Assembly: GCF_006345805.1 (NCBI RefSeq)
Contig: NC_043021.1
Span: 5,890,001 to 5,954,000 of the forward strand
DNA: 64,000 nucleotides
Reading direction: 5' to 3'
Source of the DNA: Octopus sinensis
Taxonomy: Eukaryota
The translations under genes and the position numbers were made by a program. Numbering within the stretch: the stretch's first letter is position 1; each line of letters opens with the position of its first letter. The notes beneath the pieces were generated by a model. That model saw nothing but the letters and a program-made list of their open reading frames with translations. It did no database searches and was not told the origin of the DNA. Shown here in pieces: positions 296 to 53,545 of the stretch.

Positions 296-410
296 AATAC
301 ACAACCGAAAGAGCTACTAATAGTTTCATGCTTTTATGATACTTGAGCAGGCATATTCATAAAATATGCCATGTACCTTAAAGCAATCTTTCAGGCTCTG
401 TCTGTGCATT
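296..410 (-). ncRNA. Type I hammerhead ribozyme motif (Penelope-associated, extended stem II)
   Basis: Minus strand reads AATGCACA..AGAGC CTGAAAGA T TGCTTT..GGCATATT-TTATG-AATATGCC..AAAGCA T GAAA CTA T TAG TA GCTCT..TGTGTATT. Stems I, II and III pair by eye; the core carries one extra A. Confidence 0.65.
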
Positions 411-586
411 ATATATATATATTTTAAAAACAAGGATGTCTAGGCAATAAGAAAATAAAAATAGACATGGGAGAAATGTGAAGAAGGTTGGTGCAGAAAA
501 CGGAACGAGAAACAAGAAATGAAATCAAGAAAACTAAGATCCTCATCCTCTCTGATTGCAGAATTAGTTTAGAACAAGATAACGGA

Positions 587-51500: not shown

Positions 51501-53545
51501 GTGTGTGTGTTTTATCATTTGTTTCTCTCTTTTCTTGATAAAATAATGTGCCAGCTCCTCTACTGTGAACCTGCAGGACTGTTAGTGTTGGAAGAGATTC
51601 TTTGTGTCATCATCACCATCACCACCATCACCATCATCATCACCATCACCATCATCATCATCATCATCATCACCACCACCACCACCACCACCGCTGTAAG
51701 AACTGTTGTTGTTGTTGTTGTTTCAGCTAAGGAAGAATCATCAGAAAAATTGCTACATGTCACAATGCCTGTGATCGACCATGATGAGTGCGTTTCCAAG
51801 ATGGATTATGCTTCTCTCAACGAGCAACATATCTGTGCTGGAGACTTCAAAACTGGAGGTGCCAGCACCTGCATGGTAAGTGACTAAGAGACTAAGAGAC
51901 TGGCATTGAGATTGAGCACACAGTAATACTTGCATGGGGGTGGAGGCGCAATGGCCCAGTGGTTAGGGCAGTGGACTCGCGGTCATAGGATCGCGGTTTC
52001 GATTCCCAGACCGGGCGTTGTGAGTGTTTATTGAGCGAAAACACCTAAAGCTCCACCAGGCTCCGGCAGGGGGTGGTGGCGATCCCTGCTGTACTCTTTC
52101 ACCACAACTTTCTCTCACTCTTACTTCTTGTTTCTGTTGTACCTGTATTTCAAAGGGCCGGCCTTGTCACTCTCTGTGTCACGCTGAATATCCCCGAGAA
52201 CTACGTTAAGGGTACACGTGTCTGTGGAGTGCTCAGCCACTTACACGTTAATTTCACGAGCAGGCTGTTCCATTGATTCGGATCAACTGGAACCCTTGTC
52301 GTCGTAACCGACGGAGTGCTTCCTCCTACTTGCACGGGGACACACTGACACACACACATGCACACATACACAAGCACACACGCAAACATACACACTCATG
52401 CAAGCACCCATACCTATACACATGCGTTTGTGCCCCCCCCACACACACACATACACACATTCAATACATTCATACTTATTCATACATACATACATACATA
52501 CATATATATACATACATATATATATATATATATATATATATATATATATATATAGTTAATCCAAACATGAAAGCACAAAAAAACACAACAACGCGAGGAC
52601 GTGGAACAAATATAGTATTATGGGACGCTCAGGAAAGAAGGAGGGTTTGACGTTTCGAGCAGAGCTCTTCGTCGGAAACATAGGAGAAGGAAAGATCCAG
52701 AGAAGGGAAGACAGAGGAAAAAAAAATCGCCAACGGTGCACACGCGGTCACATTTTGAATGTATATATATATATATATATATATATAATATATATATATA
52801 TATATATATTTATATTATATAGTGGGCATTACTATACATAAATGCCACAAGCTAGGAGGGTGCAATTGTGGGGGTGAATCGAGCCAGTTAATTTAAATGT
52901 GTGTGTGTGTTGTAGGTTTTTAACAGTGTATTAAAAAAAATAACTGCTATTCCTTTATTCCTTAACTAGCAGTAATGCCCGGCGTTGCTTGGGTTTGTAA
53001 GGGAAATAACTATATAAGCATTTTTAGAGAGTTATAGCCAAAAAATGCATTAAAAATGGAAAAAAAATTATGGTAAATTTTTTTTTAAATCGTTGACTCA
53101 TCGTAGACATTTTTAGAGTTACTTCCCTTATTTAATAGTGAAAAAAATGCATTAAAATGGAAAAAAATGATGGTAAATTTTTTTTTAAATCGTAGACTCA
53201 TCGTAGACGCGCGCTAATACCCAGAAGGGCTCGATATGAATCACGACTATAAGATACCCGGTTTTGGTTAAACTGCACCGCAAAATGTGGGAGTAGTTAG
53301 GAATCTAAATCGTAGGAGACAGACACTCACACAACTTTACTTTTATATATAAAGATTTCATTCTTCACTTATTTTCTTCCCAACAGGGTGATTCTGGAGG
53401 CCCTCTCTATTGTCCCTCAAGCAATGGTAAAATGGTACTGGCTGGGATCACATCTTTTGGCTACGATTGCCAACATGATGCAGCCATCTTCACAAATGTT
53501 GCCTATTACAAAAGATGGATTAAATCTTTGATGAAGATTCTGTAA
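42485..53545 (+). CDS. Secreted chymotrypsin-like serine protease (peptidase S1A), gene B, 6 coding exons, 260 aa
   Basis: Exons 42485-42545, 46183-46333, 49091-49218, 51287-51421, 51727-51875 and 53387-53545 are all GT-AG and total 783 nt in frame. The protein has a signal peptide [19 protein letters not shown], then [37 protein letters not shown] and GITSFG. Intron phases match gene A, and exons 2, 4, 5 and 6 have the same lengths. Confidence 0.92.
44300..44960 (-). mobile_element. RTE-clade LINE 3' fragments
   Basis: [34 protein letters not shown]. Similar fragments are at about 21980-22080, 23130-23340, 32070-32330 and 58650-58860. Confidence 0.7.
45216..45560. repeat. Long (TA)n microsatellite in gene B intron 1
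   Basis: Seen directly in the sequence. Confidence 0.95.
46183..46333 (+). CDS. Gene B exon 2 (IVDG N-terminus, catalytic His)
   Basis: CTCTAG| (P)[57 protein letters not shown]; 151 nt. Confidence 0.93.
47611..47992 (-). mobile_element. tRNA-derived SINE, family 3, in gene B intron 2
   Basis: Reverse complement of the 51941-52323 copy, with A box TGGCCCAGTGG and B box GGTTTCGATTCCC. Confidence 0.85.
49091..49218 (+). CDS. Gene B exon 3
   Basis: TTCCAG| (F)[49 protein letters not shown]; 128 nt; it ends like gene A exon 3 (PM C|GTAAGTAG). Confidence 0.88.
49667..50925 (+). mobile_element. Full-length but decayed Tc1/mariner transposon, DD37D (maT) family, in gene B intron 3
   Basis: TIRs CAGGGTGCATAAGGGATTTGAGGACA / TGTCCTCAAATATCTTACGCACCCTG, with TA on the left. 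The transposase (about 49759-50800) has a frameshift and stops: [30 protein letters not shown], with 37 residues between the 2nd and 3rd D. Confidence 0.9.
51287..51421 (+). CDS. Gene B exon 4 (catalytic Asp)
   Basis: TTGCAG| (R)[51 protein letters not shown]; 135 nt. Confidence 0.93.
51727..51875 (+). CDS. Gene B exon 5
   Basis: TTTCAG| (S)[55 protein letters not shown]; 149 nt. Confidence 0.93.
51941..52323 (+). mobile_element. tRNA-derived SINE, family 3, in gene B intron 5
   Basis: Begins GGAGGCGCAATGGCCCAGTGGTTAGG..GGTTTCGATTCCCAGACC. A third copy is at about 59412-59702(-). Confidence 0.85.
52645..52679 (-). ncRNA. Minimal hammerhead-like motif (U4C core variant) in a (TA)n-flanked repeat
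   Basis: Minus strand reads GTTT CCGACGA A GAGC-TCT-GCTC GAAACGTC AAAC. A decayed copy is at 12067-12101. Confidence 0.55.
52966..53355 (-). mobile_element. Non-autonomous Helitron in gene B intron 5
   Basis: Minus strand reads A|TCTTTATATATAAAAG..hairpin..CTAG|T, the same family as 8178-9199. It ends 31 nt before the exon 6 start. Confidence 0.82.
53387..53545 (+). CDS. Gene B exon 6 (catalytic Ser, stop)
   Basis: [58 protein letters not shown]; 159 nt. AATAAA follows at 53624-53629. Confidence 0.93.
   Translation, partial: GDSGGPLYCPSSNGKMVLAGITSFGYDCQHDAAIFTNVAYYKRWIKSLMKIL

What the first reader, a model, noticed from the sequence alone, without database searches (positions are those of the whole stretch)
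296..52679. Four unrelated short repeat families, mostly (TA)n-embedded, each carry a hammerhead ribozyme motif: a possible cephalopod retrozyme/PLE ribozyme repertoire
Seen: type I hammerhead folds on the minus strand at 296-410, 12560-12684, 16333-16377 and 52645-52679, plus a decayed sister copy at 12067-12101. Each has a CUGANGA-like core, a paired stem II, GAAA, a tiny or palindromic stem III, an NUH triplet and a closing stem I. The host sequences are unrelated apart from the core and sit in or next to TA microsatellites. Established: Penelope-like elements and metazoan non-LTR retrozymes carry such minimal type I hammerheads, often active as dimers. Inference: several non-autonomous, ribozyme-bearing retroelement families that prefer TA tracts have colonised this genome and may produce self-cleaved or circular RNAs.
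Basis: partly seen in the sequence, partly recalled or inferred. Interest (0 to 1): 0.75.

Follow-up and report, generated by a model that had tools for sequence, protein, structure and literature searches.

The report
Hammerheads in octopus Penelope-like retrotransposon ends
The five motifs are hammerhead-ribozyme folds at the tail ends of four Penelope-type jumping genes in what is likely an octopus genome, and in each family a subfamily with an altered catalytic core still made many copies, so the self-cutting step is likely weak or not needed for jumping (cutting itself is untested).

Summary
All five motifs are present as described and exceed chance (4 hits against 0.085 in shuffles). They are not retrozymes. 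Each lies in the 3' end (pseudo-LTR) of a protein-coding Penelope-like element (PLE): two Hydra-clade families (296, 12560), one Neptune-like (52645, 12067) and one Nematis-like (16333). Copies are dispersed, 5'-truncated, often paired with an inverted copy, and end in (TA)n. PLE hammerheads, including an octopus Hydra one, are published. Two things are less ordinary. First, three of the four intact window motifs have non-canonical cores (U4C, A9C, one extra base), and these are subfamily traits: A9C stands in 2,549 of 2,930 pattern matches, U4C in 81 of the first 100 of 5,344 intact motifs, beside canonical sister subfamilies. Second, the Neptune-like family is mostly fixed-length ~210-bp solo ends (31 of 38 start within 33 nt). 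Cleavage and circular RNA are untested. The scan noted other PLE hammerheads and true retrozyme arrays elsewhere in this genome, but no look-alikes of the 16333 or 52645 families. Verdict: new members of a known kind, with useful natural core variants.

The parts
275..1304 (-). Family A: 5'-truncated Hydra-clade PLE copy (endonuclease C-terminus, 3' UTR, hammerhead), split by a LINE 3' fragment at about 563-1009
   Evidence: blastn to longer family copies covers 1304-1009 and 563-275; translation; family ORF motifs
1070..1309 (-). C-terminal 80 codons of the family A GIY-YIG endonuclease, with CxxC before the conserved E and CxH after the conserved N (Hydra signature)
   Evidence: diagnostics from PMC8557442 section 11
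296..410 (-). Family A type I hammerhead fold: core CUGAAAGA (C3 at 394, one extra base), U.U at the base of a 58-nt helix II arm, near-palindromic stem III, GUA site, predicted cut between 315 and 314
   Evidence: covariation; matches the Hydra hammerhead layout in the PMC8557442 supplement
11969..12177 (-). Family D solo pseudo-LTR (second copy) between (TA)n tracts
12067..12101 (-). Decayed family D hammerhead (U4C core, G12 lost, one stem II mismatch, GUU site)
12364..13096 (-). Family B: 5'-truncated 3' UTR of a Hydra-clade PLE, between (TA)n tracts
   Evidence: blastn to L121/L122; ORF upstream in L121/L122
12560..12684 (-). Family B type I hammerhead fold: canonical core CUGAAGA (C3 at 12673), 85-nt helix II arm, 8-nt palindromic stem III, GUC site, predicted cut between 12570 and 12569; member of the youngest, U4 subfamily
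16211..17326 (-). Family C: 5'-truncated Nematis-like PLE copy (last 45 endonuclease codons at 17316-17183, 3' UTR, hammerhead), split by a SINE at about 16560-16950, ending in (TA)n
   Evidence: blastn and tblastn; ORF in L123/L124
16333..16377 (-). Family C minimal hammerhead fold: core CUGAUGC (C3 at 16371, A9C at 16365), one unpaired base, 6-bp helix II, weak non-palindromic stem III, CUC site, predicted cut between 16338 and 16337
52555..52760 (-). Family D solo pseudo-LTR of a Neptune-like PLE, between (TA)n tracts, antisense in the last intron of a trypsin-like gene
52645..52679 (-). Family D minimal hammerhead fold: core CCGACGA (U4C at 52674), one unpaired A, 4-bp helix II, ACGU palindrome as stem III, GUC site (minor allele), predicted cut between 52649 and 52648
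   Evidence: layout as in the min-HHR consensus of the PMC4209133 supplement

Best explanation
The five motifs are hammerhead folds in the 3' ends of four protein-coding Penelope-like retrotransposon families, left here as 5'-truncated copies that the elements' own enzymes likely inserted into (TA)n, and their self-cleavage is likely weak, protein-assisted or dispensable for copying. Steps: (1) shown: each motif lies 3' of, and in sense with, an RT plus C-terminal GIY-YIG ORF. (2) Established for PLEs, inferred here: the endonuclease nicks AT-rich DNA and RT starts at a fixed internal site of the RNA about 0.1-0.3 kb downstream of the hammerhead, which gives fixed 3' ends. (3) Shown as pattern, inferred as cause: early stops give variable 5' truncation and inverted second copies (A, B, C). 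(4) Inferred: in D the RNA starts at a promoter inside the pseudo-LTR, so RT runs off the RNA 5' end after about 210 nt, giving thousands of solo ends. (5) Inferred: the short or palindromic stem III needs two copies to pair; solo genomic copies like these would rarely cleave. (6) Shown: master lineages with U4C, A9C or an extra core base amplified widely; inferred: full catalytic speed is not needed for transposition, while the fold is still kept.
For: D: pLTR-ORF-pLTR in 5 of 12 long loci, and a D unit beside the ORF in all 12; weak Pfam RVT_1 (E 2.5e-4) and GIY-YIG (E 1.8e-3) hits. C: RT and GIY-YIG ORF upstream in L123/L124, and 45 endonuclease codons in the window copy itself. A, B: Hydra-type endonuclease and RT pieces upstream. 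Inverted neighbours within 1.5 kb: C 9/30, A 6/21; B in several loci. C has two 3' ends about 55 nt apart, the PLE tail pattern. D 5' ends: 31 of 38 within 33 nt; 5 of 30 loci are chimeras joining different ORF positions to the same D start. Core variants; subfamily trees. Fold kept: one clear compensatory pair in A, two in B; C3, G5, A6, G8, G12-A14 and U16.1 unchanged in all subfamily consensuses. Literature: hammerhead mutants do not affect insertion in vitro and cleavage needs the PLE protein (PMC11167929); low activity even as dimers (PMC4209133); U4C lowers activity, an insertion after A6 gives low activity (PMC3088659).
Against: No cleavage, promoter or transcript-end data were obtained. 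Pfam hits lie below curated cut-offs and were absent for A, B and C; clades were assigned by motif, without a reference tree. The trend is not one-way decay: in B the youngest subfamily went from C4 to canonical U4, and in C the A9 and C9 groups are of similar age with unresolved polarity. U4C stays functional in a viroid in vivo (PMC3088659), so variants may still cleave enough. Covariation is thin: pairs with changes on both sides do not exceed shuffles (407/500 for A, 456/500 for B), and C and D stems do not vary between subfamilies. D showed 0/30 and B 0/30 inverted neighbours in the pattern-picked sets, and D has no clear tail. Exact-pattern counts undercount old subfamilies, which inflates the share of the A variant.
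Confidence: 0.8

Rival explanations
1. Same PLE identity, but the variant cores are fully adequate ribozymes in vivo (as dimers or with the PLE protein), and cleavage remains a required step; U4C, A9C and the extra base are tolerated alternatives.
For: The fold and most core bases are kept in all subfamilies. C4 persists across the deep B subfamilies although it makes a CpG. U4C supports viroid infectivity (PMC3088659). A PLE hammerhead is protein-assisted (PMC11167929).
Against: Three different core defects arose in four families. Single changes in the CUGA turn gave low activity in a deep scan of another hammerhead (PMC9901934 passage). Insertion in vitro does not need cleavage.
Confidence: 0.3
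2. Family D short copies are an independent non-autonomous (SINE-like) family: solo pseudo-LTRs transcribed from their own promoter and copied in trans by the Neptune-like protein.
For: 31 of 38 copies are fixed-length and non-coding; more than 11,000 pattern matches; the Penelope promoter lies within the pLTR (PMC2377424 passages).
Against: Both D subfamilies include copies that run on into the long 3' UTR, so short and long copies share masters. A run of 7-8 T in the sense strand argues against RNA polymerase III (sequence; terminator rule recalled).
Confidence: 0.2
3. One reading: non-autonomous non-LTR retrozymes whose tandem transcripts self-cleave into monomers and circles.
For: Type I folds with palindromic stem III; one locus has three direct D units separated by (TA)n (L162); earlier notes report retrozyme arrays of other families in this genome (not checked).
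Against: All four families continue into PLE ORFs; direct neighbours are rare (3 of 111 copies); copy ends do not coincide with the cleavage site.
Confidence: 0.06
4. Chance motif matches in AT-rich repeats.
For: No Rfam hammerhead hit; C and D do not fold better than shuffles; the descriptor was tuned after the fact.
Against: 4 hits against 0.085 in shuffles; 160 against 1 over 1.22 Mb of loci (loci enriched by design); position and layout match published PLE hammerheads; canonical-core sister subfamilies exist in all four families.
Confidence: 0.01

Closest known systems
Hydra-clade PLEs and their hammerheads, e.g. Hydra-1_Obim of Octopus bimaculoides and Penelope-1_HM (Craig et al. 2021, PMC8557442; passages, sections 6 and 11, supplement part 2 and search hits read)
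   Same: Families A and B: C-terminal endonuclease without CCHH, CxxC and CxH around E and N, (TA)n targets, hammerhead near the 3' end. A has the same U.U base of helix II and the same stem III and site letters as Penelope-1_HM.
   Different: Helix II arm is 58 nt (A) and 85 nt (B), against loops of 3-10 nt in the published Hydra table. A mostly has one extra core base, B mostly U4C. B has a 3' UTR of about 2.6 kb, while published Hydra elements are mostly under 3 kb in all. Neither hammerhead is that of Hydra-1_Obim.
Minimal hammerheads of metazoan PLE pseudo-LTRs (Cervera and de la Pena 2014, PMC4209133; parts 1-2 of 4 and passages of supplement file 2 read, file 1 not searchable)
   Same: Families D and C: short helix I, unpaired base after position 9, G10.1-C11.1, minimal stem III, mostly single motifs from truncated PLEs; GUU sites are common in that alignment.
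   Different: Dominant subfamilies carry U4C (D) or A9C (C); the consensus there is CUGANGAH and the core variant named in the text read is U3-A8. C's stem III is not palindromic.
PAc (Poseidon of Anolis), the PLE studied in vitro (Frangieh et al. 2024, PMC11167929; parts 1-2 of 4 read)
   Same: Hammerhead in the pLTR; AT-rich targets; internal RT start giving fixed ends and a tail (seen in C).
   Different: Different clades; here the hammerheads lie in long 3' UTRs, not over the start codon; natural core variants occur at thousands of loci.
Metazoan non-LTR retrozymes (Cervera and de la Pena 2020, PMC7229834, parts 2-3 of 6 read; Li et al. 2026, 10.64898/2026.07.22.740005, part 1 of 5 and passages read)
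   Same: Type I hammerheads in short, AT-rich, repeated units of PLE ancestry.
   Different: Retrozymes are ORF-less tandem arrays that yield circular RNA; these four families are dispersed ends of ORF-bearing elements.

Membership tests
EN+ Penelope-like elements | Single ORF with RT followed by C-terminal GIY-YIG endonuclease, continuous with the repeat | tested here: met
   D (weak Pfam hits); C; A and B as RT and endonuclease pieces in decayed copies; window copies of A and C reach coding sequence
EN+ Penelope-like elements | Partial tandem forming pseudo-LTRs around the ORF | tested here: met
   D: 5 of 12 long loci. Not shown for A, B, C, whose 5' ends were not fully retrieved
EN+ Penelope-like elements | Variable 5' truncation and adjacent inverted truncated copies | tested here: met
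   C 9/30 and A 6/21 inverted neighbours; B but 0/30; D 0/30 with clustered 5' ends
EN+ Penelope-like elements | Optional 3' tail (two 3' ends) | tested here: inconclusive
   Clear in C (about 55 nt); several ends in A and B; not seen in D
Hydra clade (A, B) | No CCHH; CxxC and CxH either side of E and N | tested here: met
   A; B
Hydra clade (A, B) | CxCX5C linker | tested here: inconclusive
   Met in A (L179, L183, L185); in B the second Cys reads Phe in both copies read
Hydra clade (A, B) | RWK and DKT motifs; RT phylogeny | not tested
   5' parts of the ORFs not retrieved; no reference set in the script box
Hydra clade (A, B) | (TA)n insertion preference | tested here: met
   B 24/30, A 15/30 against 21% and 15% background
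Neptune clade (D) | GxKF-like motif, DKG, long CX2-5CxxC linker, CCHH endonuclease | tested here: met
   compared by eye with Neptune rows of the PMC8557442 supplement
Neptune clade (D) | Placement in an RT tree with reference PLEs | not tested
   no reference sequences available to the tools
Nematis clade (C) | Short CX2-5CxxC linker and CCHH endonuclease; RT phylogeny | tested here: inconclusive
   Short linker and CCHH layout as in Nematis rows, but DKS instead of DKG and no tree; homologues are unnamed as to clade
Type I hammerhead ribozyme | Core CUGANGA, GAAA, NUH | tested here: inconclusive
   Met for the window copy of B; not met for the window copies of A (+1 base), C (A9C), D (U4C); a canonical subfamily exists in each family
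Type I hammerhead ribozyme | Three helices round the core, with covariation | tested here: inconclusive
   Helices present; 1 clear compensatory pair in A, 2 in B; pair counts not above shuffles; no variation to test in C, D
Type I hammerhead ribozyme | Match to an Rfam hammerhead model | tested here: not met
   no hammerhead family at E<=10
Type I hammerhead ribozyme | Self-cleavage 3' of NUH | not testable with these tools
   needs an assay or raw reads
Non-LTR retrozyme | Head-to-tail arrays with a hammerhead in each unit | tested here: not met
   direct neighbour within 1.5 kb in 3 of 111 copies; no short arrays among the first 100 matches (read by eye)
Non-LTR retrozyme | No coding capacity in the family | tested here: not met
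Non-LTR retrozyme | Abundant circular monomer RNA | not testable with these tools
   only contigs were offered

The most novel reading that the evidence does not exclude
In octopus PLEs the hammerhead has become mainly a structural RNA element, not a catalyst: four lineages each swapped a near-invariant core base or gained an extra one and kept spreading to hundreds or thousands of loci while keeping, and in the Hydra families greatly lengthening, the helices. In the Neptune-like family, internal RT initiation plus run-off at the RNA 5' end would stamp out more than 10,000 fixed-length solo ends, a genomic record of the internal-initiation mechanism so far shown in vitro.
Probability: 0.35. 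Interest if true: 0.65.

Novelty: new member of a known kind. Interest (0 to 1): 0.42.

Why it matters
The role of hammerheads in Penelope-like elements is open: they are nearly universal, yet slow in vitro and dispensable for insertion in the one reconstituted system. These families supply four natural pairs of sister subfamilies that differ at one core position and both amplified, so activity can be compared directly with in vivo success. They also add over 14,000 hammerhead-bearing loci to the annotation of this genome. The presence of hammerheads in octopus PLEs is itself already published and not surprising.

Tried and rejected
Rfam: no hammerhead row among the 150 listed of 269 for the whole window and none in four focused scans. 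Pfam gave nothing useful for A, B, C proteins. RNA evidence: no RNA holder listed; only contigs of runs guessed to be RNA. Laying four of them on the family C end showed both A9 and C9 letters (A9 share about 11%, 72%, 10%, 38% of depth) and no pile-up of ends, but contigs cannot show ends, strand or level, so this is not used. No read data were obtained for family D. Retrozyme reading rejected on arrays and ORFs. A polymerase III SINE reading for D rejected: an internal T run and only loose A/B-box likeness (read from the sequence; box consensus recalled). One-way decay of the cores rejected: B shows a change back to U4 in its youngest subfamily and C is unpolarised (midpoint roots only). The +17837 motif sits in a LINE coding fragment and is treated as chance. 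Lunse et al. 2017 on PLE hammerhead variants is not held, so it may already describe U4C or A9C; bioRxiv supplements and file 1 of the PMC4209133 supplement were not visible. Searches for prior reports found no paper on these four families or on core variants in octopus PLEs; Repbase/Dfam were not searchable. Organism is inferred (one search names an Octopus bimaculoides homologue at 55% identity; repeat landscape), not looked up.
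Full report
Observation. The window is G000:C25:5890001-5954000 of a 2.72-Gb genome, inferred to be an octopus (a named Octopus homologue; not looked up further). All five motifs are at the stated places on the minus strand. I call them A (296), B (12560), C (16333) and D (52645, 12067). A descriptor that admits all four intact motifs finds just these 4, against 0.085 in 200 shuffles; it was widened after the fact. 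A strict descriptor finds only B, with a 2-bp stem I, plus a likely chance hit. Rfam models do not match. Only B has the textbook core; D reads CCGACGA, C reads CUGAUGC and A reads CUGAAAGA.

Families. Each motif belongs to a genome-wide repeat. Exact patterns give 11,146 (D), 2,930 (C), 118 (B) and 117 (A) matches, with 0 for reversed controls; these are lower bounds. 3' ends are fixed and abut (TA)n in 25/30, 21/30, 24/30 and 15/30 copies, against 13-21% background.

They are PLE ends. Following longer copies upstream reaches an ORF in every case. D: N-terminal KGLRF and DKG motifs, RT, a long CX4CxxC linker and GIY-YIG, weak Pfam RVT_1 and GIY-YIG hits, and pLTR-ORF-pLTR in 5 of 12 long loci; Neptune-like by comparison with the alignment rows in the PMC8557442 supplement. 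C: RT plus GIY-YIG with a short linker, Nematis-like by the same comparison, not confirmed by a tree. A and B: endonuclease without CCHH, with CxxC and CxH around E and N, the Hydra diagnostics of PMC8557442 section 11; CxCX5C is intact in A and altered in the two B copies read. In the window itself, A runs from 1304 to 275, split by a LINE fragment, and C from 17326 to 16211, split by a SINE; both include endonuclease codons. Inverted neighbours within 1.5 kb occur in 9/30 C and 6/21 A copies, direct ones in 3 of 111 copies overall (9 A loci dropped). C has two 3' ends about 55 nt apart. Truncation, inverted copies and tails are the PLE hallmarks described in PMC8557442 section 6. Retrozymes are ORF-less tandem arrays (PMC7229834; bioRxiv 10.64898/2026.07.22.740005), which these are not.

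Comparison with known hammerheads. The supplement of PMC8557442 lists hammerheads for Hydra elements, including Hydra-1_Obim from Octopus bimaculoides with (TA)n targets. Family A repeats the Penelope-1_HM layout (U.U at the base of helix II, same stem III) but with a 58-nt helix II arm; B has an 85-nt arm; published Hydra loops are 3-10 nt. D fits the minimal consensus of PMC4209133, in which GUU sites are common, so GUU is not counted as a defect.

Is the fold under selection? In A (33 of 55 copies aligned, chosen for a complete motif) 81.6% of cells pair, the covariation score is 0.152 against 0.139 (7/500 shuffles), one pair switches U-A to C-G between subfamilies, but the number of pairs changed on both sides does not exceed shuffles (407/500). 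In B (24 of 30 loci plus the window copy) 93.6% pair and two pairs switch between subfamilies; score 0/500, pair count 456/500. These are a few events in related sequences: modest support. C and D stems do not differ between subfamilies.

Core variants. They are subfamily traits, not decay of single copies. C: 2,930 matches, 381 not C at position 9, so 2,549 carry A9C; of the first 100 non-C matches 68 are A, 31 T, 1 G. D: 48 U4 and 52 C4 among the first 100 short-pattern matches; among 5,344 intact motifs, 81 of the first 100 are C4. B: 84 C4 and 16 U4 of the first 100. A: 80 of the first 100 have the extra base, a share inflated by undercounting of the older subfamily. Direction differs. In D the C4 copies form one clade (96/92) and are younger (5.4% against 7.9%); in A the canonical group is older (19% against 14-15%); in B the canonical U4 group is the youngest (1.0%) and nested in C4 (100/99); in C the two groups are similar in age (2.9%, 3.6%) and unpolarised (midpoint roots). 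ORF-bearing copies carry the variants too (L123, L124, L162-L164). Literature read: U4C lowers activity in vitro but supports viroid infection, and an insertion after A6 gives low activity (PMC3088659); single changes in the CUGA turn gave low activity in another hammerhead (PMC9901934); PLE minimal hammerheads cleave poorly even as dimers (review passages); in the Anolis element cleavage needs the protein and dead cores still insert (PMC11167929). I infer weak or dispensable cleavage, with a tolerated-variant rival at 0.3. Lunse et al. 2017 could not be read and may list such variants.

Fixed-length D copies. 25 of 30 pattern-picked copies and 31 of 38 including bystanders begin within a 33-nt window, giving units of about 210 bp; B and C 5' ends are widely spread. 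Five of 30 loci join different points of the ORF 5' region to this same start. The Penelope promoter lies in the pLTR (PMC2377424 passages) and RT starts internally. I infer that the D RNA starts here and RT runs off, or jumps template, at its 5' end. Both D subfamilies also have long copies, which argues against a separate non-autonomous master but does not exclude one. Copy ends lie far from the predicted cut sites in all families.

Expression. No usable evidence either way (see Tried and rejected). The 52645 copy is antisense within an intron of a trypsin-like gene, so that pre-mRNA would not carry the fold.

Prior knowledge. Nine literature searches found PLE hammerheads, Hydra PLEs in octopus and active Penelope families in Octopus vulgaris (PMC13282606 passages), but no account of these families. 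Earlier scan notes describe other PLE hammerheads and retrozyme arrays in this genome (unchecked); none resembled C or D by sequence; A and B were not looked up.

Verdict. Real motifs, known kind, retrozyme reading not supported. The added value is four natural canonical/variant core pairs and the solo-end pattern of D. Interest 0.42.

Noticed in passing
window 20700-30500 (-) and 46270-53520 (+): Two divergent multi-exon trypsin-like (S1) serine protease genes, located by His, Asp, GWG and GDSGGP-type motifs. The D copy at 52555-52760 is antisense in the last intron of the + gene.
   Followed up: partly
window 7431-7503 (+) and 57849-57921 (-): Two near-identical tRNA genes (Rfam 66 bits); anticodons read CAC and TAC, so valine.
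   Followed up: no
window, 10 or more copies, e.g. 16534-16950, 29020-29430, 43700-44110, 60500-60910: An abundant SINE-like family (D13-D19); one copy splits the family C element.
   Followed up: no
window 563-1009 (-): 3' end of a LINE (RT C-terminus, short 3' UTR, (ATATT)n tail) inserted just after the family A endonuclease.
   Followed up: partly
L061 (G000:C10211:50358-53703): An unplaced contig matches the start of the window: 100% over the 346-base query and alignable over both 1.5-kb flanks; likely a haplotig or recent duplication.
   Followed up: no
flanks of fetched loci: At least eight further hammerhead types, several with long helix II arms and 6-8-nt palindromic stem III, turned up as bystanders, so the genome's repertoire is far larger than four families and long helix II may be common in it.
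   Followed up: no
L122:1-2674 and L121: Family B has about 2.6 kb of non-coding, AT-rich 3' UTR and asparagine-rich low-complexity inserts in its ORF.
   Followed up: partly
L162:6554-7321: Three direct D units separated by (TA)n at the 3' end of a full-length element; looks like repeated insertion into the same tract.
   Followed up: partly
L124:2653-3447: A different PLE endonuclease (Neptune-like linker) lies 2 kb upstream of the family C element.
   Followed up: no
window 9546-11785 (-): A twice-repeated open-frame segment around a 1-kb (TGG)n tract; unexplained.
   Followed up: no
L130, L132, L146, L153, L155: Chimeric D copies joining different points of the ORF 5' region to the common start of the pseudo-LTR; possibly RT template jumps.
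   Followed up: partly
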